DNA from: Candidatus Nomurabacteria bacterium
GTDB lineage: Bacteria; Patescibacteriota; Minisyncoccia; Phycocordibacterales; UBA9973
Assembly (NCBI GenBank): GCA_026396015.1
Contig: JAPLXP010000011.1
Coordinates: forward strand, 15,897-79,896
Length of the DNA stretch: 64,000 nt
Direction of reading: 5' to 3'
Positions 4,356 through 47,603 of this stretch are shown piece by piece. Within the stretch, counting starts at the first letter, position 1. Every line of letters begins with the position of its first letter. The notes under the pieces are model-generated. The model saw only the letters and a program-made list of their open reading frames with translations, ran no database searches and was not told the origin of the DNA. Both the position numbers and the translations under genes were made by a program.

Positions 4356-5534
4356 ATGAATGAGGAACAACTCAAAGCTATAGAAGCAAAATTCCGCGAA
4401 GTTGTAGATGAGGCTTTCGAAAAGAAGATCGGTGAGGCCGTAGGTCCCATGGTCGCTAAAGAAACCCGCTCAATCGTGGAAAAGATGCGCATCGAGCGCT
4501 CTCTCTTCGGCAGTGATGTGTCCGGTCTTACCAATGATCAAAAAACAAATTTTGCAGAAATTGCAAAAGCTGTAGGTTTTGGTGATAAGGCTAAGGCAGG
4601 TGCATTAACTGAGGAGCAAGATAGCGCGGGCGGATACCTTGTAGAAACTGAAGTTGCAGCAGCGATCGTGAGGATTGCGGCAACTGTTGGCCTCGTCTTG
4701 GCACAGGCTACAAAGTGGCCTATGACAACTGATGAGCTCGGAATCCCTGCATTCACAGGTGCATTCTTGGAAGGTGAATACCTAGGCTATGATGCCGCAG
4801 GTTCTATTACTGCAATGACATTCGGGCAAGTCGCTTTGATAGCAAAGAAGTGGCAGCTCGCATTTGCATTGGGTAATGATCTTCTCTCGGATGCCAGTGT
4901 GAATCTTGCGGATTGGCTTCTTGCACTCGCCGGTGAGGCGCTTGCAAACCGAACCGACAAGGAAGGATTCATCGGTGGCGGATTCGCAGGTTCTCCTTTT
5001 GTGGGAATCATGAATCATCCGACTGTGACCGTACAGACAATGGCGACAGGAAAAACAACTTTCGCTTTGTTTGATATTGCGGAAGCATCGGACGCTATCG
5101 CGAACCTTGAAGAATCTTTACTTGATGGTGCGGCGTTTTACTTCAACCGCACAGTATGGGCAAAGATTCGTTCGCAGAAAGACACCGCAGGCAACTACAT
5201 CTTCGGTTATTACAATACCGACTTTGTATCTTTCGGTGTGGGATCGGGACTTAAACCGCAAGGTTTTATTCTCGGCTATCCGGTCTACACAACTCGCCAT
5301 CTCCCCGCAAACTCCGCTTCAGCAATCAGCACTACTTTTGCCATCTTTGGCAACATTAAGGCTCTTGCGTACGGAGACAAGGGTGAGATGAAGGTCGCGC
5401 AGTACCAGTCCGGAACTTTCGGAGGCAAGGAAATTGCACTCTCCGATCAGACGGGTCTTGTGATTAAACATCGTCATGCCGTAGTGGTAACACTCGGTGC
5501 GGCGTTTGTGCTTCTTAAGACTTCGGCTTCTTAG
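4356..5534 (+). CDS. HK97-like major capsid protein
   Basis: 392 aa. There is an N-terminal coiled-coil delta-like region, a 2-bp gap after the protease gene, and a strong downstream hairpin. Confidence 0.75.
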   Translation: MNEEQLKAIEAKFREVVDEAFEKKIGEAVGPMVAKETRSIVEKMRIERSLFGSDVSGLTNDQKTNFAEIAKAVGFGDKAKAGALTEEQDSAGGYLVETEVAAAIVRIAATVGLVLAQATKWPMTTDELGIPAFTGAFLEGEYLGYDAAGSITAMTFGQVALIAKKWQLAFALGNDLLSDASVNLADWLLALAGEALANRTDKEGFIGGGFAGSPFVGIMNHPTVTVQTMATGKTTFALFDIAEASDAIANLEESLLDGAAFYFNRTVWAKIRSQKDTAGNYIFGYYNTDFVSFGVGSGLKPQGFILGYPVYTTRHLPANSASAISTTFAIFGNIKALAYGDKGEMKVAQYQSGTFGGKEIALSDQTGLVIKHRHAVVVTLGAAFVLLKTSAS

Positions 5535-9417: not shown

Positions 9418-9602
9418 CGTACCAATGGGAACGCTACTTCGCCTCAGGTAGAGCCGATCTTACTCACGAAATGGTGCAAGCAGTTATCTGTAGAGAAATG
9501 AAATGGACATATGAAGAATATCTTGAATGTCCGAGTTGGTTTATAGACATGATACTCGACATGCTTCAGTCCGAAGCGAGAGCAAATAACAAAGACAAAT
9601 AA
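9085..9602 (+). CDS. tail assembly chaperone -1 frameshift fusion product (gpGT-like). Made of 9085..9402 joined in the -1 frame to 9402..9602.
   Basis: Hand translation of the -1 frame after the slip: NRGEVTYQWERYFASGRADLTHEMVQ...ARANNKDK*. This matches the conserved G/GT arrangement of tailed phages. Confidence 0.5.
9396..9402 (+). promoter_or_regulatory. -1 programmed ribosomal frameshift slippery site A_AAT_TTA
   Basis: The heptamer AAATTTA lies in the 0 frame of the chaperone ORF as A AAT TTA. The -1 frame stays open for another 66 codons, to the TAA at 9600-9602, 2 nt before the tape-measure ATG. Confidence 0.6.
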
Positions 9603-9604
9603 TT

Positions 9605-11008
9605 ATGGATCAGACTGTATTACAAATATTGCTACAAGTAAAAGATGAGGCATCGGACTCGATGCGAAAGTTTGGCTCGTCTTTAAAAGATGCCGAAGGA
9701 GCCTCCAAGGGTTTTGCCCTTGGTCTTCTTGGTGTTGGTGTAGCAGCAGTTGGATTTGGATACAGTGTTGTAAAAGCGGCAGCTGAAGCGCAGTCGCAGA
9801 TTGCAAGTATGGATGCAACGCTCCGCTCTATGGGAAAAGGCGGAGAGGAAGCACACGACTCAATCATAAAAATGTCTCAAGCGGCGGTACAGCTTGGCTT
9901 TGATGATGAAGATGCAGCAGTGAGCTTGGCGCGTTTGTATCAACGTACTGGTGATTTGACTGAAGCACAAAAACTAAATGCTACAGCAATGGATCTAGCT
10001 CGAGCAAAACATATAGAGCTATCAATGGCGAGCAGTCTCGTGGGTATGGTAATGAGTGGCAACAGTCGTGTGTTGAAACAATTCGGTATCGACATCAAAG
10101 ATAGTGCCACTCCGCTAGAAGCACTCGGGATATTGCAACAAAAAGTTGGAGGGCAAGCGCAGGCATTCGCGGGAGGATTCCAAGGACAGATGGCAGTGCT
10201 TTCTGTCACCTTTGAGAATTTTAAAGAATCACTAGGGGATCAGGTACTACCGGCACTTACAAAACTAGCGACTGCGGCAACAGACTTCATAGTAAACGTA
10301 CTTCCAAAATGGATTGATAAAGCAAAACAACTGATTGAATTCCTGAAAGGACACCCTGCTGTTATGTATGCGATTGCCGGAGCAATTATCGGAGCTCTGG
10401 TCCCTGCAGTATATGCAGCAGTAACGGCGTTTATAGCTGCTGCCGTGGCGCTCGCACCATTCATTATTGGTGGTGCAATCATCGGCGGAATTGTTGCAGG
10501 CGTTTTATGGGTCGTGGATCACTGGAGCATGCTGAAAGAAAAAGCAGTAGAGATTTTCACTGCGGTCAAAGACTTTTTCAAGAAAGTCTGGGATGACATC
10601 AAAAATGTTTTCAAAGAAGCAATCGATTGGCTGATGGGTCTTATTCAACCATTTCTAGACGCGATCAATAAAGTAATTGGTGGAGCAAAATCAGTAGGTT
10701 CGCTTGTTGGTAAAAGTATAAATGCTGTCGGGCAAGGTCTCACCAATGTCGGGCATGCTCTTGGATTTGCAGATGGTGGAATAATTACAAAGCCAACATT
10801 CGCAATGATGGGTGAGGCGGGAGCTGAAGCAGTGATACCTCTTGATCGTTTAAAAAGTCTAACTGGTGGAGGATCGGTAACAAATAACCAAAACATACTG
10901 AACCTAAATATCAACGCAAAGGTCGATAGCAAGATTGATATCAGAAAAATGGCGGAGGATATCAGCTCAGTCATTATGGGACAGCTTAAGGCAAGTCAAC
11001 GCATATGA
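9605..11008 (+). CDS. tail tape measure protein
   Basis: 467 aa. It has N-terminal coiled-coil segments and hydrophobic/Gly-Ala-rich helices in the middle (AIAGAIIGALVPAVYAAVTAFIAAAVALAPFIIGGAIIGGIVAGV). It is placed after the chaperone frameshift. Confidence 0.7.
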   Translation: MDQTVLQILLQVKDEASDSMRKFGSSLKDAEGASKGFALGLLGVGVAAVGFGYSVVKAAAEAQSQIASMDATLRSMGKGGEEAHDSIIKMSQAAVQLGFDDEDAAVSLARLYQRTGDLTEAQKLNATAMDLARAKHIELSMASSLVGMVMSGNSRVLKQFGIDIKDSATPLEALGILQQKVGGQAQAFAGGFQGQMAVLSVTFENFKESLGDQVLPALTKLATAATDFIVNVLPKWIDKAKQLIEFLKGHPAVMYAIAGAIIGALVPAVYAAVTAFIAAAVALAPFIIGGAIIGGIVAGVLWVVDHWSMLKEKAVEIFTAVKDFFKKVWDDIKNVFKEAIDWLMGLIQPFLDAINKVIGGAKSVGSLVGKSINAVGQGLTNVGHALGFADGGIITKPTFAMMGEAGAEAVIPLDRLKSLTGGGSVTNNQNILNLNINAKVDSKIDIRKMAEDISSVIMGQLKASQRI

Positions 11009-12501: not shown

Positions 12502-13053
12502 ATGAATTTAAAAAGTGAAATGACAATCAAAGTAAACATAGACACGTTCGTTCTCGCAGAATGGGTGAGTGAAGTAGGGAAAGAAATAGCGATGCTTCGT
12601 GAATATGTGAAGACAGGTAAAAAAAGTATTTTGTCTGTTCTCAGAAAGACCGGAGCGCTTATCAAGCATTCACATCGACACAACTTGATCACCACTGCGG
12701 GGAGAACGGTACTCGCTCGCAGAATTGCAGGAAATACTACATACACAGGCGCAATCAATTATGGATTACTCGGTATGCAAGCAAGTCCGGTCCCTGCGAA
12801 TAGCAGTACACAACTTGGCACTGAAGTCTTTCGTAAACTTGCCGCAAGTCAAACATTCGATAACAACATCGCGTATGTAGATTTTTTCTACACAGCCGGC
12901 GATACAAACGGAACATATACAGAGTTTGGAAATGTGATTGATGGGACAGCAACTGTAAACACCGGGCAGTTGTTTTCTTACGTCGCAACTGGTGGTTGGG
13001 TGAAGTCGAACGCCCAGAGTCTTTTTGTCAGCTGTAAATATACCGTAAGTTAA
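12502..13053 (+). CDS. tail-associated hypothetical protein
   Basis: 183-aa ORF in the tail module. Confidence 0.45.
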   Translation: MNLKSEMTIKVNIDTFVLAEWVSEVGKEIAMLREYVKTGKKSILSVLRKTGALIKHSHRHNLITTAGRTVLARRIAGNTTYTGAINYGLLGMQASPVPANSSTQLGTEVFRKLAASQTFDNNIAYVDFFYTAGDTNGTYTEFGNVIDGTATVNTGQLFSYVATGGWVKSNAQSLFVSCKYTVS

Positions 13054-13054
13054 T

Positions 13055-14179
13055 ATGAAAACTTGGAACGCAGGCGAGATTGTTCTCGCATCAGATTTGA
13101 ATGGAAATTTTATAGAAGCTAGACAGTTTCTATTTGGAGATGGTTCTGACGGTGATGTTACGATTTCAAGTAACACAGGATTGTCTCGAGATATGTACTA
13201 CAACAACCTGACTATTCAGACAGGCGTTGTTTTGAATTCAGCAGGATATAAAATTCACGTCAAAGCAACTCTTACTCAGCAAGGTACAGGCAAGATTGGT
13301 AGATCAGGAAATAATGCAAGCACTGGAAATACAGGTGGAAGCGCAAACAATGGATCAGGAAATAACTCTGTCGCAGGTGGAGCAGGTGGCTCTGGTGTCG
13401 GAGACGGAACACTCAAAGGGTCCGCAGCAGGAAAAAATGGAGCAAGTAGTGGAGGTGGGGGTGGAAATGGAAGTGGTGGATCATCTGGCAGTGCTGGCAC
13501 AACTGGCGATGCAAAATCATCCTGTATTGGAAGTAACGGTGCCGGTGGTGGCAATGGGGGTAACGGTGGCAATGCTACAAACTACGGTGGTGGGGGCGGA
13601 GGTGGTGCAAGCTCGGGAGGTACTGCAACAGGTGCAACCACAAAGCCTCGCAATCTTGTAAACGCCGAATTGATGGTGGATTTTGTGCTTGGAGTAGCAA
13701 CTCCCTATGAAGCAAATGCGGGTAGTGGCTCAGGTGGTGGAGGTGGAGGAGGCGGGGGATTCAATACTGGCCAACCACAATGGAACTATGGCGCAGCCGG
13801 AGGTGGAGGTGGTGGATCTGGATCACACGCTGGGAACTTCTTCATTGCTGCAAAAAATATCGTGATGAGTGGAAGCGGTAATCTTTTTGAATTCATCGGA
13901 GGCGTTGGAGGTAATGGTGGAAATGGGGGAAACGCTGCCGGTGCGACTGGCTCAGTTGGAGGTGCCGGCGGAGGTGGTGGAGCAGGTGCGGGAGGCAATG
14001 GAGGTTCAGGTGTTCTTATTTACGAATCACTCACTGGGACGCTTGCGTACTCACTTGCAGGTGGAGCAGCAGGAACAGTCGGATCAAGTGGCTCTCCTTC
14101 TGCCGGAGGTGGAGCGGGAGCTAACGGTGCCGCAGGTTCTGTCGGAAATGCAGGCACACTTTATACATTTAGTGTTTAA
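13055..14179 (+). CDS. glycine-rich tail fibre / receptor-binding protein with GGNGGN-type low-complexity repeats
   Basis: 374 aa. A conserved N-terminal segment (MKTWNAGEIVLASDLNGNF) is followed by long GGxGG tracts. GC-rich repeats generate spurious ORFs on both strands. Confidence 0.6.
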   Translation: MKTWNAGEIVLASDLNGNFIEARQFLFGDGSDGDVTISSNTGLSRDMYYNNLTIQTGVVLNSAGYKIHVKATLTQQGTGKIGRSGNNASTGNTGGSANNGSGNNSVAGGAGGSGVGDGTLKGSAAGKNGASSGGGGGNGSGGSSGSAGTTGDAKSSCIGSNGAGGGNGGNGGNATNYGGGGGGGASSGGTATGATTKPRNLVNAELMVDFVLGVATPYEANAGSGSGGGGGGGGGFNTGQPQWNYGAAGGGGGGSGSHAGNFFIAAKNIVMSGSGNLFEFIGGVGGNGGNGGNAAGATGSVGGAGGGGGAGAGGNGGSGVLIYESLTGTLAYSLAGGAAGTVGSSGSPSAGGGAGANGAAGSVGNAGTLYTFSV

Positions 14180-26996: not shown

Positions 26997-27164
26997 CCGA
27001 TTCTAGTTTATCCACTCATTGACGACGGAACTAGGGAAATGCGCTTGCTATATAAAAGTCATTGGTTTATGCTGTATGTGTAGATCCTTGAAAACTCAAA
27101 TCCTCCACGAAACTCGGGTGTAGGGGAGACTTTTATAAAGCCGCATTTAGCGGCATAAAGAATA

Positions 27165-27177
27165 CGACACAGTGTCG
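27165..27177. promoter_or_regulatory. Perfect palindrome CGACAC-A-GTGTCG (operator-like). A second ACGACACT half-site and TATATAAT lie 15-25 bp downstream.
   Basis: Direct read of cgacacagtgtcg ... ttacgacactatataat. Confidence 0.35.
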
Positions 27178-27218
27178 CACAATATATCTTTTACGACACT
27201 ATATAATAAAATAAAGCG

Positions 27219-27249
27219 CAGGATATTGTGATGGGTATCCTGCGCCTAT
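27219..27249. terminator. hairpin GCGCAGGATA-loop-TATCCTGCGC (10-bp stem) at the element/host junction region
   Basis: Direct read; the T/A-rich flank is weak. Confidence 0.4.
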
Positions 27250-27302
27250 TAATTTTAATTTATTATTGAGCTTGTGCTCCTTTGGATTCGCTCATTTTTA
27301 AT

Positions 27303-27776
27303 TCAACTAACAAAATCATCTTCACTATATTCAGTTGAAAATGGATATTTATTATTTAATATATCCTCTTTGTCTAGGTCTGAATTTAAGACTATCGTAT
27401 CTATAATCATACAAATTGTGCTTACTACGCTACTATCTTGTAAGTCAGCTTCTTTTTCAAATAAAAGATCATTGAACTTTAACATATTTTGTATTGTTGT
27501 AGAAACCTGAGTGTACCTAACTAACTCTAATACTGAAGAATGTTTTTGTTTAGCTTGCCTAGGATTACTGATGATTACAGGATCAAACACAACGATTACT
27601 TCTTCAATTTTTTGATCCAAGCCTTGTGATTCAATATGATCATTGCATATTTTTATTGAAATGATAATTTCATTTTGTTTACATACGGATAAATGTAAAG
27701 AAATAATTTTTACATTTTCGATGTTGAAGATTAACTCTAACCATTTACTGAGGTTTTGATTTTTTATGTTATTCAT
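27303..27776 (-). CDS. hypothetical protein
   Basis: 157-aa AT-rich ORF. Confidence 0.45.
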   Translation of the reverse strand: MNNIKNQNLSKWLELIFNIENVKIISLHLSVCKQNEIIISIKICNDHIESQGLDQKIEEVIVVFDPVIISNPRQAKQKHSSVLELVRYTQVSTTIQNMLKFNDLLFEKEADLQDSSVVSTICMIIDTIVLNSDLDKEDILNNKYPFSTEYSEDDFVS

Positions 27777-27871
27777 TTTTTAAATAATTGATTTTGAGTA
27801 TTATAATACAAAATGCACCATTACGTCAATAGTATGGTGTATTAGGTGTAATATATTGAATTTTGTCTAGT

Positions 27872-29119
27872 CTAAGCGTTCTTACCTGCTACGTATCCAC
27901 TAGTCCAGCATAGCTGGAGTGAATATCCTCCTGAAGGTCTATTGATGTCGAGCAAGTCCCCTGTGACAAATAAATTTTTTATCATTTTTGAATTCATTGT
28001 CTTCATATCTATCTCGCGGAGATCTACGCCTCCATCAGCCACTACAGCGCGTTCAAAGCCCATCAGGCCCTCAATCTCCAATGGTAGAGCCTTTAGTGTA
28101 TCTATGATCTTTCTGCGATCCTCCTTGGATATACTGTGAACCTTGGTTTCGAAATCAATACCCTGAAATAGTGAATCGAGTGATTTATGAGTCCCATCTG
28201 GAACTATCAATTTAAAAATATTTCCAAAATTTTTATTTTTATTCCCATCAAATATTTTAAGTATTTTTTTATCAAGCATTGCTATGTCGTGGTCTGGGTA
28301 TAGATCAATCTTGGCAGTCACAATACCATCATATAACAGCTCTTGAACTTGTGCTGAAGAATTCAATATGAGTGGTCCTGATAAGCCAAAATGAGTAAAG
28401 AGTATCTTCCCTTTCTTTGCAAAAGATTTCTTGTCATCAAGGTAGAATGTAATCTTCATAAGGTCTACAGATATACCAGCGAGCTCTTTGACCCAATTGT
28501 CTGCTACGGCTAGAGGCACGATAGTCGGAGTCGGATCTTTTACTTTGTGGCCTAAATCTTTGAGGAAGTTGAATCCATCGCCAGTTGACCCTGTCTCTGG
28601 ATGAGACAGTCCACCAGTAGCGATGATATATGAATCTGCAAAATAATTGTCTTTAGTAGTTTCTATCTTTTTGATCTTGCTCTCTGTGTGGACGATATTG
28701 CGCACCTTTACACCTAATGCTAGGTCTACATTCAGCTTCTTGAGCTCTTTTTCTAATGTATTTGATACATCCACAGCCTTTTCTGACTTTGGAAATGCAC
28801 GCTTGCGAGCCTGTACTACTAGAGGTAGGCCCAGATCTTCAAAGAATTTGAATGTGTCATTCTTGTTGAATTGTGAAAATGGTGAATGAAGGAAGTCTTT
28901 TGCCTTACCATATTTTGATAGAAATATCTGCATATCATCCTCATTGTTTGTGATATTGCATCTACCACCACCAGAGATTTTCAATTTCTCTCCGAGTTTT
29001 TTGTTTTTCTCTATGATACAGACCTTGCGTCCTTGGCGTGCAGCTACAATAGCCGCCATCATCCCAGATGCGCCTCCACCGATTATCACTACATCAAATT
29101 TTTTGTCTTTTTGTATCAT
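27872..29119 (-). CDS. HI0933/BaiN-like FAD-dependent flavoprotein (NAD(FAD)-utilising dehydrogenase family)
   Basis: 415 aa. N-terminal Rossmann motif VVIIGGGASGMMAAIVAA and GGGRCNITN. Confidence 0.8.
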   Translation of the reverse strand: MIQKDKKFDVVIIGGGASGMMAAIVAARQGRKVCIIEKNKKLGEKLKISGGGRCNITNNEDDMQIFLSKYGKAKDFLHSPFSQFNKNDTFKFFEDLGLPLVVQARKRAFPKSEKAVDVSNTLEKELKKLNVDLALGVKVRNIVHTESKIKKIETTKDNYFADSYIIATGGLSHPETGSTGDGFNFLKDLGHKVKDPTPTIVPLAVADNWVKELAGISVDLMKITFYLDDKKSFAKKGKILFTHFGLSGPLILNSSAQVQELLYDGIVTAKIDLYPDHDIAMLDKKILKIFDGNKNKNFGNIFKLIVPDGTHKSLDSLFQGIDFETKVHSISKEDRRKIIDTLKALPLEIEGLMGFERAVVADGGVDLREIDMKTMNSKMIKNLFVTGDLLDINRPSGGYSLQLCWTSGYVAGKNA

Positions 29120-31088: not shown

Positions 31089-32189
31089 CTATATCCCCTC
31101 TTGCTTTAGTATTTCAAGTGCATCGCGTGATTTTTTAGAAAGCTTGGTTGGCATCTTGATCTGAATGCGGATGATGATATCTCCACGCTTTGATCCAGAT
31201 GGTACGCCCTTGCCCTTTACCCTCAAAAATTCTCCATGATTTATCCCCTCTGGAATTTTTATTTCAAGTGATCCATCGAGAGTCTCGAGATCGTAGTTCA
31301 TACCTAGTAGTGCATCTGAGAGCTTGATATGTACATCAGTCATCAGATTCGCACCTTCACGGCGATACGTCTTGTGAGGCCGTATATTGATGCGGATATA
31401 TAGATCTCCAGACGGAGCACCTTTGATCGCTTCACCGCGACCTGTCATACGGATAGTCTCGCCATTGTTTAGTCCTGCTGGGATTGCCACCTTGATCTCT
31501 TCTTGTTTATTGTGTACACCTTTGCCATGACATTCACTGCATTTTTCATGAGGTATTTTTCCTGCACCTGTACATGAATCACATTGCTTGATACTAGAAA
31601 ATGATCCGAGGATAGAGCGCTTCATCTCTCTGATCTGGCCCTGGCCATTACAAGTCTTGCATTCGTCCATCTTTGTGCCAGGTTTTGCACCACTACCACT
31701 ACATACCTCACAAGCTGACTGCTTTGTGAGTAAAATTGACTTTGTAGTACCAAAAACAGCCTCGGTAAAGTCCAAGTCTATTTCTGTAGAAATATCGCGT
31801 CCACGGCGACTATGGGCCCCTCTGCGGCCCATCCCACCACTGAACATATCTCCAAAAATATCTCCTAAATCTCCCATGTCGAATTCCATACCACCTTGCC
31901 CTTGGTTGAAGCCAGAAAAGTCAAAACCACCGAAGCCTTGACCCCCTCCAAAACCACCCTGACCACCAGCAAAACCAGCAGGTCCGTCAGATCCAAACCT
32001 GTCGTACTGAGCACGCTTTTGATCGTGAGAAAGAGTCTGATAAGCCTCATTCACTTCTTTGAATTTTGTATCGTCACCCTTGTTTTTATCTGGATGGTAT
32101 TTATGCGCCATCTTATGAAAGGCCTTCTTGATCTCATCCTTTGAAGCGCTCTTATCTATTCCTAATGTTTCGTAGTAATCTTTTGCCAT
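31089..32189 (-). CDS. dnaJ: molecular chaperone DnaJ
   Basis: 366 aa. J-domain HPD (YHPDKN), G/F-rich linker, and four CxxCxGxG zinc-finger repeats. Confidence 0.95.
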   Translation of the reverse strand: MAKDYYETLGIDKSASKDEIKKAFHKMAHKYHPDKNKGDDTKFKEVNEAYQTLSHDQKRAQYDRFGSDGPAGFAGGQGGFGGGQGFGGFDFSGFNQGQGGMEFDMGDLGDIFGDMFSGGMGRRGAHSRRGRDISTEIDLDFTEAVFGTTKSILLTKQSACEVCSGSGAKPGTKMDECKTCNGQGQIREMKRSILGSFSSIKQCDSCTGAGKIPHEKCSECHGKGVHNKQEEIKVAIPAGLNNGETIRMTGRGEAIKGAPSGDLYIRINIRPHKTYRREGANLMTDVHIKLSDALLGMNYDLETLDGSLEIKIPEGINHGEFLRVKGKGVPSGSKRGDIIIRIQIKMPTKLSKKSRDALEILKQEGI

Positions 32190-34169: not shown

Positions 34170-34730
34170 TTAACTTTTAATGCTTGCAATAATATTTGTC
34201 CGATTTTGATCTATATAATGTTTAAATAAAGGAAATTTTTCAGAAATCTCATAATATACACCAGATGAGTTACCAGATTTCCAAAAATTTTTAATTATTT
34301 TTTCATTAGTCCAATGAAGTAAAACAAAATCATCCAAATTATTTCTTCCTTTTATTATTAAATTACCTATTTCTTTTTCATCTAATTGGTTAAATTTTTT
34401 TATAAATTCTGAATGCTCTTTAAATCCTTCTTCAAATTTTAAAAGTCCTGATTTTATTTTATTGTTTATCTCTATTTTATTGTAGTAAAAGTAAAGATTA
34501 GGGATTAATTTAGAAATATAACTTGATACACTACCTAGTCCAGTAATATTATCAATATCACCTGAATCATTAAATTTAAAATCATATTTTATTTTAAATC
34601 CTGATTCTTTTTCTTTATCTACAACACTGTTAATAGTTGCTTCTATGTCATTTAATAATTTATTATTTAAATAATCAAAATCTTTTAGTAATTCTATTTC
34701 TGTAAATAAATTTGTGTCTAATTTTCTCAT
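34170..34730 (-). CDS. hypothetical protein, ultra-AT-rich (foreign-looking)
   Basis: 186-aa ORF, strongly AT-biased and Asn/Lys/Ile-rich. It ends 14 bp upstream of dnaK. Confidence 0.5.
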   Translation of the reverse strand: MRKLDTNLFTEIELLKDFDYLNNKLLNDIEATINSVVDKEKESGFKIKYDFKFNDSGDIDNITGLGSVSSYISKLIPNLYFYYNKIEINNKIKSGLLKFEEGFKEHSEFIKKFNQLDEKEIGNLIIKGRNNLDDFVLLHWTNEKIIKNFWKSGNSSGVYYEISEKFPLFKHYIDQNRTNIIASIKS

Positions 34731-34733
34731 ATA

Positions 34734-35162
34734 TTAATTTATTTCATTAATTTTTAATAATTTTCTAATTTTTAAAATCTCTTCTCTTCTTGTTTTGGCA
34801 TCACATATATACCAAGATAAACTTACAAGTAAACATAAATTATCTGCGGCCTTTCTAATATTTTTTGATTTAATATTTTTGAATACTAATCTTTTGTAAT
34901 CTGTTTCTAGGTCGCATGACAATGCTCTAATTTTATTTTCAATTTCCTCTGATATCTCTTTGGGAATTTTTTCTATGTCATTAAGTATTACTGATAAGTA
35001 AAAATTTAACTGATGGTCAATTTTAGATACAGTGTCTTTGTATTTTTGTCTTGGTTTTAATATGTAATCTTGAAATATTTGACTCAAAACAAATACTAAT
35101 ACTCCAGCAATTACAGTTTGAAAAACAGTACTTTGTATTAAAATTAATAAAAAATTAAACAT
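34734..35162 (-). CDS. hypothetical membrane-anchored protein, ultra-AT-rich
   Basis: 142 aa with an N-terminal TM helix. There is a 3-bp gap to the next gene. Confidence 0.5.
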   Translation of the reverse strand: MFNFLLILIQSTVFQTVIAGVLVFVLSQIFQDYILKPRQKYKDTVSKIDHQLNFYLSVILNDIEKIPKEISEEIENKIRALSCDLETDYKRLVFKNIKSKNIRKAADNLCLLVSLSWYICDAKTRREEILKIRKLLKINEIN

Positions 35163-35199
35163 ATATTACATAATATACCCAATTTATATTTTTGACAAG

Positions 35200-35249: not shown

Positions 35250-35876
35250 ATGTCAAGCATGGAAAATAAGCCTAAAAAACAAGATTTTTCAAAGAAAATC
35301 ATTAAAATATTGTCTGGAAAGAGCGCTGTGGCGGTGGATGATTTAGTAAATATGGTATCGCATTCATCCCCTCCTTTCGGAGGAGGGGTGGCTGAAATCC
35401 GGGGTGGTGATCCAATTCGAATCACCACCCCCAACCCCCTCCTCAACAAGGAGGGGGCGAAAAATGCATACGCCCTTACTCGCTCTATAAAGGGATTAGA
35501 GGACTCAGGGCTCATAGAGCAGGTGTCTTCAGGGCAATCTAAATACGCTCGCCTGACCAAGGAAGGCAAGAAAAAGGCGCATAGCCTGAAGCTCGATGGA
35601 GATGGGGCTATTATTGATACGTCTTGGGACGGATACTGGAGGATGATCATTCTCGATATTCCTGAGGATAGAAAGAGTGAGCGTGAAGCACTACGATACC
35701 TACTAAAAAAAGCAGGATTCATTTGTGTAAAGAATTCAGTATGGATATCTATACTCCCATTTGAAAACTTGTTCATGAATATTAAAAAGGATTTAGGCTT
35801 GACCACAGAGATGATGATCGTAGTCACTGATCGCATAGACGAGGATACAGAAAAAGAGTTTTTGAAGTTGATTTAA
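35250..35876 (+). CDS. PaaX-like transcriptional regulator (N-terminal wHTH + PaaX_C/Cas2-fold C-domain) carrying an in-frame GC-rich insert
   Basis: 208 aa. The N-terminal wHTH reads ILSGKSAVAVDDLVNMV. The C-terminal domain reads WDGYWRMIILDIPEDRKSEREALRYLLKKAGFICVKNSVW. Residues about 38-72 (HSSPPFGGGVAEIRGGDPIRITTPNPLLNKEGAKN) are encoded by the palindromic element at 35368-35457. Confidence 0.65.
   Translation: MSSMENKPKKQDFSKKIIKILSGKSAVAVDDLVNMVSHSSPPFGGGVAEIRGGDPIRITTPNPLLNKEGAKNAYALTRSIKGLEDSGLIEQVSSGQSKYARLTKEGKKKAHSLKLDGDGAIIDTSWDGYWRMIILDIPEDRKSEREALRYLLKKAGFICVKNSVWISILPFENLFMNIKKDLGLTTEMMIVVTDRIDEDTEKEFLKLI
35368..35457 (+). repeat. GC-rich palindromic mini-element A, about 90 bp with three hairpins, inserted in frame in the PaaX-like gene
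   Basis: Stems read directly: CCCCTCC/GGAGGGG, GGTGGTGAT/ATCACCACC (9 bp), CCCCCTCC/GGAGGGGG (8 bp). Confidence 0.7.
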
Positions 35877-44155: not shown

Positions 44156-45949
44156 CTAATCTAGTATTCCTTTTATTCGACGAACACCAGCTGATGATGC
44201 TTCTTCTTTTTGTAGTTTGAAATGACCTATCTTTTTTGTATTGGTCACATGAGGACCACCACAGAATTCGATACTGAATTCTGAGTGCCCCCTCGCCTTT
44301 ACAAGGAGAGGGTCGGGGTGAGGTGCGTCTTCTATAAAGTATACAGATACCATATCTGGGTATTTTGCACCGAATTCCATCTGGGCGCCGATCTTTTCGG
44401 CTTCCTCACGAGGTAGCTCACGGCGGATTACATTCAATCCAGCATTTATCTTTTCATTTACGATATCTTCTACCTTTTTCTTCTCTTCATCTGTCATCTT
44501 GCGGTCAAATGTGAAGTCTATACGGAGTCTTTCTTCTGTGATATTACTACCTCTTTGTTTTACTTCTGCGCCGAGGACTTGTTGTAGTGCAGCTAGCAAC
44601 AAATGGTGTGCTGTGTGAAGGCTGATTGTCTTTTCATTATGATTGGCGAGGCCTCCTTTGAACATTCCTGCAGATGCAGTCTGAGAAAGCTTTTGGTGTT
44701 CAGCCATTTTAACTTTAAAATCTTCCAGATCAATAGTTTGGCCTTTTTCTGCTGCCAATTCAAGAGTGAGCTCTATCGGAAAGCCGTAAGTAGTAGCAAG
44801 AATAAAAGGATCAGTTCCTTTTTCGAATTCTTTTAGACCAGAATCAAGAGTATTTTTAAATTTTTCTATTTCATCTATGATTATTTTATAATTACTCGCT
44901 TTAATGTTTAAGAGTTCGGGGTAAGCATCTTTATATGTATCAACAAAATTAGAAAGTATGGCTGTTATATTTTCTAAAACATAACCGATTGGATTGTAGC
45001 CTATTTTATTTAAATGAACCCAGGCACGCCTTATTAATCTTCGCATAACATATCCCGTGTCTTTATTTGACGGAATAACACCGTCAGAAGCCATTAATAA
45101 AACAGCACGTAAATGGTCTAATATTATTCGTGCACTTTTTTCATTGTAATTACGGCAATTATTTCTAAAATCTTCCATGTCTGCAGAAAAAAGATCAGTT
45201 TCGTATGCACTTTTTTCTCCTTGCATCACGGCTGTCATACGTTCGAGCCCTGCTCCAGTATCCACATTTTTCTGCTTCAGTTTTCCAATGACTTTTCCAT
45301 CCTTCTTTTCATATTCCATGAATACATCATTCCAGATTTCGATTACAGTTTCTTTTTTAACTGCAGCTAAAAATCCTTCATGATCAAGGTCGCCAGTATT
45401 GCCTACCATATCGTAAAACATCTCAGAACAAGGACCACATGGGCCGTTGTCGCCAGGACTCCACCAGTTGTCATCAGCTGGCAGTGCATAAATGCGATTC
45501 TCTGGAATGCCCATCTTCATCCAGATATCTTTTGATTCTTGGTCATACGGAGCATTCTCATCGCCTTCGAAAATCGACACGTATAGGCGATTTTTATCTA
45601 GTCTGAGACCTTCTTCTTTAGAAGTCAGGAATTCATAAGACCAAGTGATAGCTTCGTCTTTAAAGTAATCACCCAGTGACCAGTTCCCCATCATTTCAAA
45701 GAATGAAAAATGGCGATTATCCCCGATATCTTCAAGGTCTCCTGTGCGGACACATTTTTGAATATCAGCTATTCTTTTGCCCATTGGATGCTCTTGGCCG
45801 AGTAGATATGGCACAAGAGGTTGCATACCTGCAGTATTAAAAAGGACTGAGGGATCATTCTCAGGCACGAGTGATGCACTAGGTATTATTTTATGGCCTC
45901 TTTTTTCAAAAAAGGCTAAGAATCTTGAGCGAATTTCATTTGATTGCAT
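44156..45949 (-). CDS. alaS: alanine--tRNA ligase, short form lacking the C-Ala domain, with an in-frame GC-rich insert
   Basis: 597 aa. N-terminal MQSNEIRSRFLAFFEKRGH; editing-domain end CGGPHV. The sequence DAPHPDPLLVKARGHSEF is encoded by element B. Confidence 0.9.
   Translation of the reverse strand: MQSNEIRSRFLAFFEKRGHKIIPSASLVPENDPSVLFNTAGMQPLVPYLLGQEHPMGKRIADIQKCVRTGDLEDIGDNRHFSFFEMMGNWSLGDYFKDEAITWSYEFLTSKEEGLRLDKNRLYVSIFEGDENAPYDQESKDIWMKMGIPENRIYALPADDNWWSPGDNGPCGPCSEMFYDMVGNTGDLDHEGFLAAVKKETVIEIWNDVFMEYEKKDGKVIGKLKQKNVDTGAGLERMTAVMQGEKSAYETDLFSADMEDFRNNCRNYNEKSARIILDHLRAVLLMASDGVIPSNKDTGYVMRRLIRRAWVHLNKIGYNPIGYVLENITAILSNFVDTYKDAYPELLNIKASNYKIIIDEIEKFKNTLDSGLKEFEKGTDPFILATTYGFPIELTLELAAEKGQTIDLEDFKVKMAEHQKLSQTASAGMFKGGLANHNEKTISLHTAHHLLLAALQQVLGAEVKQRGSNITEERLRIDFTFDRKMTDEEKKKVEDIVNEKINAGLNVIRRELPREEAEKIGAQMEFGAKYPDMVSVYFIEDAPHPDPLLVKARGHSEFSIEFCGGPHVTNTKKIGHFKLQKEEASSAGVRRIKGILD
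44287..44320 (+). repeat. GC-rich palindromic mini-element B, related to element A, in frame in alaS
   Basis: CCCCCTCGCCTTTACAAGGAGAGGGTCGGGG. It shares CCCCCTC...ACAAGGAG..GGG with element A. Confidence 0.6.
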
Positions 45950-46514: not shown

Positions 46515-47603
46515 TTACTGAACGATTCCACCACCAAGACACACGTTGTTGTCGTATATTACGATAGATTGACCAGGTGACACTAGGATAGAATTGTCGA
46601 ATATTACCTTGATATTACTACCTACTGTTGCCAACACACAATTCAAAAATTCACCGTGATATCTGATCTGTGCTGTGTACCTGCCTGTCCGGTAGGCAGG
46701 TTTTTTGTTTTCAATCACAGAAACATTTTGTATATTTGAATTTATGAGTGTGTATTCTTTATTTGAATCACCACCCCCTGCCCCCTCCTCAGAAAGGCAG
46801 GGGTTATTGGATACTATAATAGTATTTTTATTTATGTCTTTTGATATTACATAATATGGCTCGTCGTTTACGCCCTTCACTGTAATAGTAAATCCATGAC
46901 GTTCACCCAGAGTAAAGAACACTGCACCATCATGGTATCCAATTACTTCTCCATCAACATTTAATACATCACCATTTTGGGGTTCGATGTAATGAGACAG
47001 GAAATCTTTCATATCAAGGGGTCCCAGGAAGCACACACCCTGAGAATCCTTCTTTACTGCAGTTGGAAGCTTGTATTTCAATGCCAGTTTTCGAACTTCA
47101 GTTTTTGGTAGATGGCCAATCGGGAAAAGAGTATGATCTAGGTCGTCGCTGTTTAGGGTCCACAGAAAATATGACTGATCTTTTGATTCATCATTTCCTT
47201 TTACCAATTTATTATTTATATTTTGTGCATAGTGGCCAGTAGCGATAAAGTCTACACCTTGTGATTTAGCAAAATTCCAAAAAACACCAAATTTTACTTC
47301 ACGATTACACATCACGTCTGGATTTGGAGTACGACCCAATTTGTATTCAGAAATCATATAGTCGGCTACACCTTTTTTGTAAGCCTCTTCACCGTCGCAT
47401 TCTAAGAATGGTATATCAAGATGTGCACATACGCGCATCGCGTCGCGGCGCTCATCGCGCCATGTACATTCAATAAAATCAGGCTGCCAGGTACGAATAA
47501 AAACCCCGACTACTTTGTAGCCTTGATCCTTTAGTAATGCAGCAGATACAGAAGAATCAACTCCACCACTCACACCGACAAATACTGTTTTTTGATTTTC
47601 CAT
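46515..47603 (-). CDS. mnmA: tRNA-specific 2-thiouridylase MnmA with an in-frame GC-rich insert
   Basis: 362 aa. PP-loop VFVGVSGGVDSSVSAALL; catalytic Cys region. The sequence SEEGAGGGDS is encoded by element C. Confidence 0.9.
   Translation of the reverse strand: MENQKTVFVGVSGGVDSSVSAALLKDQGYKVVGVFIRTWQPDFIECTWRDERRDAMRVCAHLDIPFLECDGEEAYKKGVADYMISEYKLGRTPNPDVMCNREVKFGVFWNFAKSQGVDFIATGHYAQNINNKLVKGNDESKDQSYFLWTLNSDDLDHTLFPIGHLPKTEVRKLALKYKLPTAVKKDSQGVCFLGPLDMKDFLSHYIEPQNGDVLNVDGEVIGYHDGAVFFTLGERHGFTITVKGVNDEPYYVISKDINKNTIIVSNNPCLSEEGAGGGDSNKEYTLINSNIQNVSVIENKKPAYRTGRYTAQIRYHGEFLNCVLATVGSNIKVIFDNSILVSPGQSIVIYDNNVCLGGGIVQ
46764..46803 (+). repeat. GC-rich palindromic mini-element C, about 40 bp at roughly 90% identity to the 3' part of element A, in frame in mnmA
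   Basis: GAATCACCACCCCCTGCCCCCTCCTCAGAAAGGCAGGGG versus A GAATCACCACCCCCAACCCCCTCCTCAACAAGGAGGGGG; compared by eye. Confidence 0.65.

What the first reader, a model, noticed from the sequence alone, without database searches (positions are those of the whole stretch)
35368..35457. GC-rich palindromic mini-elements inserted in frame in three unrelated genes (RPE-like)
Seen in sequence:
- Element A, about 90 bp in the PaaX-like regulator gene, forms three perfect hairpins in an otherwise AT-rich gene. It encodes a Gly/Pro-rich 35-aa loop inside the wHTH domain.
- Element C, in mnmA at 46764-46803, matches the 3' 40 bp of A at about 36 of 40 positions.
- Element B, in alaS at 44287-44320, shares the CCCCCTC...ACAAGGAG..GGG core.
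- All three elements share one orientation on the + strand, yet they are translated on different strands: + for A and - for B and C. In each case the host ORF stays open.
- Homologues of AlaS and MnmA normally lack the extra peptides, DAPHPDPLLVKARGHSEF and SEEGAGGGDS, as far as I recall.

Established knowledge: Rickettsia palindromic elements behave this way, as selfish palindromic DNA tolerated in frame in protein loops. I am not aware of a described equivalent in CPR-like genomes.
Basis: partly seen in the sequence, partly recalled or inferred. Interest (0 to 1): 0.7.

Follow-up and report, generated by a model that had tools for sequence, protein, structure and literature searches.

The report
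Palindromic mini-elements inside Patescibacteria protein genes
A short GC-rich, hairpin-forming repeat has been inserted in frame into three housekeeping genes of this small AT-rich bacterium and into dozens of other gene families in related bacteria, much like the "selfish" palindromes of Rickettsia, and I found no description of it for this phylum.

Summary
Element A (35368-35457) forms three perfect hairpins. C matches its right half (84% over 43 nt).

The window comes from a Candidatus Nomurabacteria MAG. Three syntenic relatives lack the alaS insert (+33 nt) and a further, previously unnoticed 21-nt hairpin in mnmA. They also carry no significant copy across the 12-21 kb of syntenic DNA held for each.

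A is a canonical full-length member (about 92 nt) of a modular repeat made of two inverted half-units, each an arm plus a CCCCTCCT/AGGAGGGG hairpin.
- In low-GC metagenome contigs, 88 of 123 copies lie in long ORFs.
- 77 host ORFs hit 67 Pfam families, including PaaX-like, LigA, MnmA, PheT, RsmA, TopA, UvrB/C and FtsK.
- 77 of 81 in-ORF copies use only two of six reading frames.

AlphaFold models put the inserts in low-confidence coils. The same core also occurs, mostly outside long ORFs, in more than 10 other phyla.

Verdict: an RPE / intragenic-REP-like dispersed palindromic element family, apparently undescribed in Patescibacteria. The way it spreads is unknown: no target-site duplication at the two sites that can be read and no cognate transposase found.

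The parts
35368..35457 (+). Element A. A full-length copy (about 90 nt) consisting of an inverted doublet. The left half-unit is H1 (CCCCTCCTttcggAGGAGGGG), a degenerate mid hairpin and the arm GGGGTGGTGAT. The right half-unit is the arm ATCACCACCCC, spacer CAA and H3 (CCCCCTCCTcaacaAGGAGGGGG). It is translated as SSPPFGGGVAEIRGGDPIRITTPNPLLNKEGA.
   Evidence: Fold z = -6.0. Perfect stems confirmed. The halves are inverted copies of each other. External profiles hit the left half on the - strand (long type, E = 1e-9) and the right half on the + strand (E = 2e-7). The architecture is the same as in 29 full copies from metagenomes, median length 92 nt.
35250..35876 (+). Host gene 1: a PaaX-like winged-helix regulator of 208 aa. 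The insert occupies residues 39-70, between helix 2 and helix 3.
   Evidence: Pfam PaaX_M E = 2.8e-19. In the AlphaFold model, residues 39-70 have pLDDT < 50 and are coil between H29-37 and H69-85. Homologues without the insert are 170-182 aa.
44288..44327 (-). Element B. A degenerate half-unit (CACCTCACCCC-GAC-CCTCTCCttgtaaaGGCGAGGGGG as read on the - strand), translated as APHPDPLLVKARGH. The net gain is +33 nt (+11 aa) relative to relatives.
   Evidence: The better alignment and profile hit are on the - strand. L126, L132 and L133 have GA(G/A)A(G/A)(T/C)GG(T/C/A)AA(T/C) (ESGN/ENGN) at this position, with near-identical flanks.
44156..45949 (-). Host gene 2: alaS (597 aa). The insert lies in the C-terminal SAD/editing domain, just before the conserved EFCGGPH motif.
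   Evidence: Pfam tRNA-synt_2c and tRNA_SAD; 59 residues align to 43 profile positions. Relatives are 579-583 aa.
46764..46804 (+). Element C. A half-unit (arm ATCACCACCCC, spacer CTG, CCCCCTCCTcagaaAGGCAGGGG), translated on the - strand as NPCLSEEGAGGGDS.
   Evidence: 84% identity to A-right over 43 nt. Profile hit E = 3e-5 on the + strand. Closest relatives have linkers 3-4 codons shorter and unrelated in sequence, and E. coli 2der has an 11-aa gap here. A distant Paceibacterota MAG (L090) carries a full element in the same linker.
46680..46700 (-). Element D, newly noted. An unrelated 21-nt perfect hairpin (CCTGCCTACCGGACAGGCAGG on the coding strand) inserted in frame, adding 7 aa (PAYRTGR). 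It has the form of a REP.
   Evidence: It is a clean 21-nt gap in L126, L132 and L133 with conserved flanks and no target-site duplication. Perfect 7-bp stem. AlphaFold residues 302-305 have pLDDT < 50.
46515..47603 (-). Host gene 3: mnmA (362 aa). Element C lies in the linker between the PRC-barrel and C-terminal barrel domains. Element D lies in a loop of the C-terminal barrel.
   Evidence: Pfam domains cover residues 6-194, 199-265 and 292-361. The protein is 100% identical to an NCBI MAG protein named Candidatus Nomurabacteria MnmA. AlphaFold low-confidence segments are 273-278 and 302-305.

Best explanation
**What it is.** These are copies of a dispersed, non-autonomous, nested-palindromic DNA repeat.
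- A half-unit is a C-rich arm (ATCACCACCCC), an optional small mid hairpin, and a terminal hairpin CCCCTCCT-loop-AGGAGGGG.
- A full element of about 92 nt is two half-units in inverted orientation.
- The window's Nomurabacteria lineage acquired at least the alaS copy (B), the present mnmA linker copy (C) and the full form of A after it split from its closest sequenced relatives.

**Why the copies sit in genes.** These genomes are gene-dense and AT-rich. The copies that persist add a multiple of three bases, are read in one of two permissive frames (ITTPxPLLxKEG or PLLxEEGxGGGD), and sit in loops or inter-domain linkers of housekeeping proteins. There they are translated into short Gly/Pro-rich disordered segments that the fold tolerates.

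**Shown here:**
- repeat-family membership;
- lineage-specific presence;
- in-frame residence in many unrelated genes;
- frame bias;
- location in low-confidence coils of predicted models;
- nucleotide-level conservation above that of the host gene.

**Inferred, not shown:**
- that the copies arise by transposition or another copy-and-insert process, most plausibly a hairpin/ssDNA-dependent one of the REP/RAYT type, since there is no target-site duplication;
- that recurrent occupation of the same sites reflects tolerated hot spots, possibly with gene conversion between copies;
- that the inserts are actually translated.
For: **Structure and repetition in the window**
-.

**Lineage-specific gain**
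- Flanking alaS DNA is about 95% identical in L126, yet 33 nt are absent from L126, L132 and L133.
- The 21-nt hairpin is a clean gap in all three.
- No significant element copy occurs in the syntenic DNA of these relatives: best E = 0.015, and 12-21 kb is held for each.

**Family**
- Full copies elsewhere share A's architecture.

**In-frame residence**
- 88 of 123 copies lie in stop-free spans of at least 150 codons in contigs with median GC 0.38.
- 77 host ORFs hit 67 Pfam families.
- Named Patescibacteria examples are topA, tsaD, rsmA, mnmA, ligA, tsaC, tig and mutS.

**Translation-level selection**
- 77 of 81 in-ORF copies use 2 of 6 frames.
- 21 of 29 full copies have a length that is a multiple of three.

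**Tolerated positions**
- AlphaFold pLDDT is below 50 exactly over the inserts.
- The E. coli MnmA structure lacks the segment.

**Not ordinary coding DNA**
- Element nucleotide identity is about 94% among W, L129 and L131, against 61-67% for the host gene.
- Synonymous third positions are 92% identical in the element against 54% in the host.
- The mid hairpin covaries.

**Plausibility of a REP-type mechanism**
- Y1_Tnp/RAYT-like genes flanked by their own 17-21-nt palindromes occur in 6 of the 120 metagenome loci.
Against: - No transposase, terminal cleavage motif or target-site duplication was tied to this family. The RAYT-like genes found are flanked by other palindromes, and none is in the window.
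- Only 40 of 123 spacers carry GTAG.
- Element A's site is shared with distant orthologues, so vertical inheritance with many losses cannot be excluded for that copy.
- The closest relatives keep a decayed right hairpin at that site.
- At the alaS and mnmA linker sites the neighbouring codons are also diverged, so exact insertion boundaries are ambiguous.
- The same primary sequence occurs in more than 10 phyla. This is unusual for lineage-bound selfish repeats and could mean a conserved function.
- Many of the counted in-ORF copies are orthologous, so there are fewer independent events than copies.
- The identity figures for L173-L237 are inflated by ascertainment, because those loci were found by the pattern.
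Confidence: 0.75

Rival explanations
1. The module is a functional structured nucleic-acid motif kept by selection rather than a passenger. It could act in RNA or in single-stranded DNA. Possible roles are an mRNA hairpin that slows ribosomes at domain boundaries, protects against RNases, or sequesters SD-like AGGAGG sequences, or a binding site for a conserved host factor. The encoded peptide would then be a by-product.
For: - Stems are invariant while loops vary, and synonymous positions are 92% identical against 54% in the host.
- The mid hairpin shows compensatory changes: GGCGC/GCGCC, GCCCC/GGGGC, GTCAC/GTGAC, CGGCT/AGCCG.
- The same primary sequence is found in more than 10 phyla.
- The same sites are occupied repeatedly in PaaX-like, MnmA, LigA, TopA and RsmA.
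- Many copies sit in inter-domain linkers.
Against: - Distribution is patchy among close relatives: three syntenic relatives lack all copies.
- Decayed copies exist, such as B and the remnants in P0001 and P0003.
- Both orientations are used in ORFs (53 against 24).
- Hosts are very diverse, with no common pathway.
- There is no preferred distance to start or stop codons outside ORFs.
- No Rfam family matches.
- Palindromes can keep their symmetry through intrastrand repair, without any function.
Confidence: 0.15
2. These are ordinary lineage-specific loop expansions. Variable loops gain Gly/Pro-rich sequence by local indels or template-switch mutations that create palindromes in place. The similarity between A, B and C then reflects convergent composition or similar peptides, not a shared element.
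For: - The mnmA linker is hypervariable. Relatives carry different perfect palindromes at the same place: CCCAGGCCGGGCCTGGG in L126 and CACAGGTCCGACCTGTG in L133.
- The right arm of B may derive from pre-existing GAGAGTGGT.
- B is only a weak profile match, E = 0.04.
Against: - A and C share 36 of 43 nt although they are translated on opposite strands into unrelated peptides.
- Profiles built solely from other genomes recover all four half-units and nothing else in 64 kb.
- The identical module lies in 67 unrelated Pfam families and in intergenic arrays in other phyla.
- The chance expectation for the pattern is about zero.
Confidence: 0.05
3. Assembly or binning artefact: chimeric reads or foreign GC-rich fragments were spliced into AT-rich contigs.
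For: The elements are sharp GC-rich islands in AT-rich genes from a metagenome-assembled genome.
Against: - The sequence is identical in independent Logan assemblies from different runs: L121 covers both mnmA and alaS, and L122-L125 cover mnmA.
- Reading frames are preserved.
- The same element is seen in isolates such as Raineya, Spirosoma, Desulfospira and Roseivirga, and in single-cell genomes.
Confidence: 0.01

Closest known systems
Rickettsia palindromic elements (RPE-1 to RPE-10; Ogata et al. 2000 and 2002, as summarised in PMC10969869)
   Same: - Short palindromic repeats are inserted in frame in many unrelated housekeeping genes of a small, AT-rich, gene-dense genome.
- Each orientation is read in a consistent frame.
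- Inserts sit in positions compatible with the host fold.
- The mobilising enzyme is unknown, and no TIR/TSD signature is known.
   Different: - Different phylum (Patescibacteria rather than Alphaproteobacteria).
- Shorter: about 35-45 nt for a half-unit and about 92 nt for a full element, against roughly 100-150 bp.
- Strongly GC-rich.
- Modular three-hairpin architecture.
- The core motif also occurs outside long ORFs in more than 10 other phyla.
- Sequence relationship to the RPE consensus sequences was not tested.
REP / REPIN elements mobilised by RAYT (Y1 HUH) transposases, including intragenic GTAG- and CGTC-tagged REPs (PMC3733652, PMC3116915)
   Same: - GC-rich hairpin units of 20-40 nt.
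- Inverted doublets that fold into a larger hairpin (REPIN-like; element A).
- No target-site duplication.
- Intragenic copies encoding 20-30 aa in replication, repair and tRNA-synthetase genes have been reported in Opitutus, Thauera and Rickettsia.
- RAYT-like genes with flanking palindromes are present in related metagenome contigs.
   Different: - No strictly conserved GTAG or CGTC tag: GTAG appears in 40 of 123 spacers, and the window copies have GTTG, GCAG and GGTC.
- No RAYT gene flanked by this repeat was found.
- In Patescibacteria most copies are intragenic rather than extragenic.
- The primary sequence is shared across phyla, whereas REP families are usually lineage-specific.
Bacterial MITEs that make in-frame fusions (intragenic ERIC, Correia, BOX; PMC10969869, PMC3184786)
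   Same: - Small non-autonomous repeats with terminal symmetry.
- They occasionally lie in frame within ORFs.
- One bona fide MITE seen here (10-bp TIR GGCAGTGATA, 8-bp TSD) carries a half-unit internally.
   Different: - The in-frame copies show no TSD at the two sites that can be read.
- There is no link to a DDE transposase.
- The intragenic fraction is far higher than is typical for MITEs.
GC clusters of yeast mitochondrial DNA and double-hairpin elements of fungal or algal organelle genomes (recalled from my own knowledge; palindromic organelle repeats are also discussed in PMC2670323)
   Same: GC-rich palindromic mini-elements spread in a very AT-rich compact genome and are occasionally tolerated in frame inside coding or rRNA sequences.
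   Different: These are organellar elements with unrelated sequences. The resemblance is recalled, not tested here.

Membership tests
Rickettsia palindromic elements (RPE) | Sequence similarity to one of the RPE consensus families | not tested
The host phylum and the base composition both differ.
Rickettsia palindromic elements (RPE) | Palindromic repeat with a stable predicted hairpin | tested here: met
   -31.9 kcal/mol, z = -6.0. Perfect stems of 8, 11 and 9 bp.
Rickettsia palindromic elements (RPE) | Inserted in frame in many unrelated protein-coding genes, with the host ORF preserved | tested here: met
   Three genes in the window. 77 host ORFs matching 67 Pfam families in metagenome contigs. 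Named Patescibacteria MAGs also carry in-frame copies.
Rickettsia palindromic elements (RPE) | Copies are read in a consistent frame and lie in positions compatible with the host fold | tested here: met
   77 of 81 in-ORF copies use 2 of 6 frames. pLDDT is below 50 over the inserts. The insert falls in the inter-domain linker of MnmA, and E. coli 2der has a gap at this position.
REP/REPIN-RAYT | Short GC-rich imperfect palindrome, often as inverted doublets that form a larger hairpin | tested here: met
   Element A is two inverted half-units. 29 of 123 metagenome copies are full doublets.
REP/REPIN-RAYT | Conserved GTAG (or CGTC) tetranucleotide at one end of the unit (PMC3733652) | tested here: inconclusive
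   The spacer between arm and hairpin reads GTAG on the complementary strand in 40 of 123 copies. It reads CAA, CTG or CAG in most of the others. The window copies have GTTG, GCAG and GGTC.
REP/REPIN-RAYT | A cognate RAYT gene flanked by the same repeat | tested here: not met
   Six Y1_Tnp/RAYT-like ORFs were found in 120 metagenome loci. Each is flanked by a different 17-21-nt palindrome and never by this family. None is in the 64-kb window. Whole genomes could not be scanned.
REP/REPIN-RAYT | Predominantly extragenic location | tested here: not met
   88 of 123 copies lie in stop-free spans of at least 150 codons in low-GC contigs. All copies in the window are intragenic. In other phyla, stop-free spans around the motif are shorter than at random positions (median 152 against 390 codons).
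MITE (DDE-transposase-mobilised) | Target-site duplication flanking the insert | tested here: not met
   Comparison of filled and empty sites in alaS and for the mnmA 21-nt hairpin shows no duplication.
MITE (DDE-transposase-mobilised) | Terminal inverted repeats, small size, no transposase gene | tested here: inconclusive
   The full element is an imperfect palindrome of about 92 nt with no coding capacity of its own. Half-units, which are the majority, have no TIR.

The most novel reading that the evidence does not exclude
A single, old family of nested-hairpin elements has kept its primary sequence (CACCACCCC ... CCCCTCCT-loop-AGGAGGGG) across more than 10 bacterial phyla. In Patescibacteria it has become a major and recurrent source of new loops in essential proteins. 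It returns to the same few sites in the same genes in separate lineages. It spreads by a mechanism without target-site duplication that is not explained by known RAYT/REP or MITE systems. Possible mechanisms are an unrecognised hairpin-specific enzyme or recombination-based 'homing' between copies.
Probability: 0.3. Interest if true: 0.85.

Novelty: new variant of a known kind. Interest (0 to 1): 0.68.

Why it matters
- **Second large-scale case.** Protein-coding palindromes on this scale have been treated mainly as a Rickettsia peculiarity, with scattered intragenic REPs elsewhere. Finding the same behaviour in Patescibacteria, an unrelated ultra-small-genome lineage, suggests a general outcome when selfish hairpin DNA meets a genome with almost no intergenic space.
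- **Practical consequences.**
  - Unexplained Gly/Pro-rich inserts in CPR housekeeping proteins can be recognised and masked in alignments, phylogenies and structure predictions.
  - Presence or absence of these inserts gives fine-scale strain markers.
- **Open questions it raises.**
  - How a 40-nt sequence stays nearly identical across phyla.
  - Which enzyme moves it.
  - Whether such inserts seed new protein features.

Tried and rejected
**Searches that led nowhere**
- Rfam, at gathering thresholds on the window and nine loci and at permissive E-values on A, gave only generic hairpin noise.
- BLAST of the long-type consensus against plasmids gave only chance-level hits.
- Full-HMMER search of 1.8 billion representative proteins with the 33-aa insert peptide had too little power and gave 3 hits.
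- Word-index search with a composite element peptide gave 1 hit; that search was wasted.
- Exact look-up of the PaaX-like protein found no record.
- Literature searches by DNA core, peptide signatures and topic found no description of this family.

**Ideas tested and dropped**
- The AGGAGGGG arm serving as a Shine-Dalgarno site upstream of genes: there is no preferred distance to start codons.
- Target-site preference or duplication: flanks are only AT-rich, with A at position -1 in 75% of copies, and there is no TSD.
- The GC-rich hairpin at 31812-31832 as a further element: it lies in the conserved GGMGRRGAHSRRGRD segment of DnaJ, which is also present in the relative, so it is not an insertion.
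- Polymorphism among assemblies of the same strain: none, 99.8-100% identity.
- RAYT as the mobilising enzyme of this family: RAYT-like genes exist, but each carries a different flanking palindrome.
Full report
**1. The observation**

The sequence at 35368-35457 is as described.
- As single-stranded DNA it folds into three perfect hairpins: stems of 8, 11 and 9 bp, -31.9 kcal/mol, z = -6.0, and none of 200 shuffles folds as well.
- A scan for perfect GC-rich hairpins finds 6 in the window, against about 0.8 in Markov-shuffled sequence. Three of the six are in A.
- A lies in a 208-aa ORF of the PaaX_M family.
- C (46761-46803) is 84% identical to the right half of A over 43 nt (D7).
- The hairpin pattern CCCCCTCCTnnnnnAGGAGGGGG with up to 3 mismatches occurs 4 times against 0.00 expected.
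- The host ORFs are alaS (597 aa) and mnmA (362 aa), both on the - strand.

- B aligns over more columns to A-right and C in the reverse orientation: 39 and 37 columns, including the arm CACCTCACCCC, against 25 and 9 forward.
- A profile built only from copies in other genomes hits B on the - strand (E = 0.04), against 3.5 on the + strand.
- B is therefore translated in the same direction and frame as A-right. That is why the peptides resemble each other (TTPNPLLNKEGA and HPDPLLVKARGH).

**2. Anatomy**

A is an inverted doublet.
- The left half is H1 (CCCCTCCT-ttcgg-AGGAGGGG), a 12-nt spacer and the arm GGGGTGGTGAT.
- The right half is the arm ATCACCACCCC, the spacer CAA and H3 (CCCCCTCCT-caaca-AGGAGGGGG).
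- The two arms pair to form the central hairpin.
- C and B are single half-units.
- nhmmer with the two external profiles finds exactly these four half-units in 64 kb and nothing else.

**3. Origin of the window and comparison with relatives**

MnmA is 100% identical to a protein that NCBI names as from a Candidatus Nomurabacteria MAG. Independent Logan assemblies carry the region at 99.8-100% identity: L121 and L122 span 12-19 kb, and L123-L125 span mnmA. Misassembly of the mnmA and alaS copies is therefore excluded.

Three syntenic relatives were fetched: L126 (GCA_018061145.1), L132 and L133.

- **alaS.** The flanks are near-identical (...TACCCAGATATGGTATCTGTATACTT[T/C]AT[A/T]GAAGA...). All three relatives read E(S/N)GNQFSKEFCGGPH. 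The window reads APHPDPLLVKARGHSEFSIEFCGGPH, a net gain of 33 nt.
- **mnmA, newly seen hairpin.** A 21-nt perfect hairpin at 46680-46700 (CCTGCCTACCGGACAGGCAGG on the coding strand, PAYRTGR) is a clean 21-nt gap in all three relatives. There is no target-site duplication.
- **mnmA linker holding C.** The relatives' linkers are 3-4 codons shorter and unrelated in sequence. Two of them carry other perfect palindromes there: CCCAGGCCGGGCCTGGG and CACAGGTCCGACCTGTG. E. coli MnmA (2der) has an 11-residue gap at this point.
- **Rest of the syntenic region.** The profiles find no significant copy in the DNA held for the relatives, 12-21 kb each (best E = 0.015).

**4. The PaaX-like site is different**

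- Of 121 homologues, 83 have no insert (the loop is about 13 residues), 27 have a half-unit (ITTPxPLLxKEG) and about 10 have the full element. The full elements are scattered over a neighbour-joining tree.
- The window's nearest relatives (P0001, P0003 and P0005, 83-87% identical) lack the left 69 nt and keep only a decayed right hairpin. Hosts that are 62-67% identical (P0004, P0008) carry the whole element.
- However, the element is far more conserved than the gene around it. P0004 against P0008 gives 89% in the insert and 61% elsewhere. The 36-nt right half is about 94% identical among the three sequences that were not found by pattern. Synonymous third positions are 92% identical, against 54% in the most conserved host block. 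The wider set is biased, because those loci were found by the pattern.
- This is not how a dispensable ancestral loop evolves. It fits repeated occupation of a tolerated site, gene conversion between copies, or constraint on the hairpin itself.

**5. The family elsewhere**

*Genome collection.*
- Hits come from Acidobacteriota, Nitrospirota, Gamma- and Betaproteobacteria, Thiomargarita, Bacteroidota, cyanobacteria, Planctomycetota, Desulfobacterota, Ignavibacteriota and many Patescibacteria. They include isolates such as Raineya, Spirosoma, Desulfospira and Roseivirga.
- In those other phyla, stop-free spans around the motif are much shorter than at random positions (median 152 against 390 codons).
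- Copies occur as tandem arrays (L012, L028) or as a dispersed repeat of about 170 bp with the same H1-arm-loop-arm-H3 plan (Acidobacteria nzgw67).
- A small hairpin between arm and terminal hairpin covaries: GGCGC/GCGCC, GCCCC/GGGGC, GTCAC/GTGAC, CGGCT/AGCCG.

*In-frame copies in named MAGs.* These lie in topA, tsaD, rsmA, mnmA (same linker as in the window), ligA (twice, once in a 61%-GC unclassified MAG), tsaC/sua5, trigger factor, yfhO and mutS.

*Metagenome collection.*
- Median GC of the contigs is 0.38, and 88 of 123 copies lie in stop-free spans of at least 150 codons.
- 77 distinct host ORFs match 67 Pfam families:

| Host | ORFs |
|---|---|
| PaaX_M | 8 |
| LigA domains | 6 |
| MnmA | 4 |
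| PheT | 4 |
| RsmA | 4 |
| MurB | 4 |
| UvrB/C | 4 |
| TopA | 3 |
| FtsK | 3 |
| Tgt, PurD, TyrS/TrpS (each) | 2 |

- 77 of 81 in-ORF copies use only two of the six frames, one per orientation: PLLxEEGxGGGD in 53 and ITTPxPLLxKEG in 24.
- Full copies have a median length of 92 nt, and 21 of 29 have a length that is a multiple of three.
- A, B and C all use the family's preferred frames.
- Many counted copies are orthologous, so independent events are fewer than copies.

**6. Position in the proteins**

- **PaaX-like protein.** The AlphaFold model has pLDDT below 50 and no secondary structure for residues 39-70. That is the insert, between helix 2 (29-37) and helix 3 (69-85) of the winged helix.
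- **MnmA.** The model has low-confidence coil at residues 273-278 (element C, in the linker between the PRC barrel and the C-terminal barrel) and at 302-305 (the 21-nt hairpin).
- **AlaS.** The insert precedes the conserved EFCGGPH motif of the SAD domain, where 59 residues align to 43 profile positions.

**7. Mechanism**

*Shown:* a dispersed repeat family, lineage-specific gain, in-frame residence with strong frame bias, and nucleotide-level conservation.

*Not shown:* how copies are made.
- Filled-versus-empty comparisons show no target-site duplication. This argues against a DDE-type MITE mechanism and fits hairpin/ssDNA-dependent (HUH, REP/RAYT-like) insertion.
- Y1_Tnp/RAYT-like ORFs do occur in 6 of the 120 metagenome loci. 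One of them sits directly upstream of a PaaX-like gene that carries a half-unit.
- Each of these ORFs is flanked on both sides by its own 17-21-nt palindrome: GTGAAGGACGGTCCTTCAC, CATAGGTCAGACCTATG, TTGATGTCGGACATCAA or CAACCTGCCAGGTTG. None is flanked by this family.
- Those palindromes resemble the 21-nt hairpin in mnmA and the palindromes in the relatives' linkers. REP/RAYT activity is therefore a reasonable explanation for the single small hairpins. It remains only a hypothesis for the CCCCTCC family.
- GTAG, the tag of classical REPs (PMC3733652), is present in only 40 of 123 spacers and in none of the window's copies.
- A separate true MITE (10-bp TIR GGCAGTGATA, 8-bp TSD) carries a half-unit inside it.

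**8. Comparison with what is known**

- **RPEs.** The behaviour matches Rickettsia palindromic elements. The 2024 MITE review treats RPE in-frame insertion as exceptional and only conjectures similar cases elsewhere (PMC10969869).
- **Intragenic REPs.** It also matches the intragenic GTAG/CGTC REPs reported in Opitutus, Thauera and Rickettsia, many of them in repair and replication genes (PMC3733652).
- **Membership not established.** Sequence similarity to RPEs was not tested. The REP tag result is inconclusive. The cognate-RAYT and extragenic criteria are not met.
- **Prior description.** Searches of the paper library by DNA core, peptide signature and topic found no description for Patescibacteria. 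That library omits most subscription journals.

**9. Verdict**

- The finding is real and the RPE-like reading is supported, with corrections.
- I class it as a new variant of a known kind (protein-coding palindromic repeats).
- The cross-phylum conservation of the core, the recurrent sites and the unknown mobilising activity remain open and are the interesting parts.

Noticed in passing
window 46680-46700 (mnmA, - strand): A 21-nt perfect hairpin (CCTGCCTACCGGACAGGCAGG) is inserted in frame and adds PAYRTGR. It is a clean gap in three relatives and has no target-site duplication. It is unrelated in sequence to A, B and C, but it has the form of a REP.
   Followed up: yes
window 34208-35185: About 980 bp of very low GC (about 30%) holds two - strand ORFs (34170-34730 and 34734-35162) with no Pfam match. 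In relative L127 this stretch is absent and dnaK is followed directly by the PaaX-like gene. It is an indel right next to the host gene of element A.
   Followed up: partly
L173 562-1293 (-); L250 3980-4426 (-); also L160, L215, L243, L185: These are Y1_Tnp/RAYT-like ORFs in low-GC metagenome contigs. Each is flanked on both sides by its own 17-21-nt palindrome, for example GTGAAGGACGGTCCTTCAC. In L173 and L250 the gene sits directly upstream of a PaaX-like gene that carries a half-unit.
   Followed up: partly
L153 about 5150-5330 and 9480-9650; L171 about 12740-12900; L227 about 570-730; L241: A MITE of about 150 bp has 10-bp terminal inverted repeats (GGCAGTGATA/TATCACTGCC) and 8-bp target-site duplications (for example AAATTATA, GTAATTTT, GGAAATAT). 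It carries a half-unit (ATCACCACCCC-CTA-CCCCCTCCTcaAGGAGGGG) internally and lies next to unrelated genes.
   Followed up: partly
MnmA homologues P0131-P0232 (linker between the PRC-barrel and C-terminal domains): The linker is hypervariable in Paceibacteria. It holds other recurrent insert peptides that look like further repeat families: SSGPR(V/G)(G/K)SPDHSE in about 10 proteins and DTNNSLLGISSARASR in about 5. Relatives L126 and L133 carry different perfect palindromes at this position.
   Followed up: partly
L012 6840-7170 (Permianibacter MAG); L028 1300-2030 (Flavobacteriales MAG); L005/L007/L009/L062/L116/L120 (Acidobacteria nzgw67): Outside Patescibacteria the same module forms tandem arrays of units of about 115-160 bp. 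In one acidobacterial MAG it forms a dispersed repeat of about 170 bp.
   Followed up: partly
window 13055-14179 (+): A 374-aa ORF contains long Gly-rich runs (GGNGGNGGN, GGGGGGG). It lies in the higher-GC left part of the window (41-48% GC) and produces the D1 repeat family.
   Followed up: no
window about 27000-29000: GC skew and AT skew both change sign near 28 kb. Over 33-49 kb most long ORFs are on the - strand. Gene orientation left of 28 kb was not checked.
   Followed up: no
window 9705-9723 and 31812-31832: Two further perfect GC-rich hairpins. The second lies in the conserved GGMGRRGAHSRRGRD segment of DnaJ, which the relative also has, so it is not an insertion. The first lies near the N-terminus of ORF 9605-11008 and was not compared with relatives.
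   Followed up: partly
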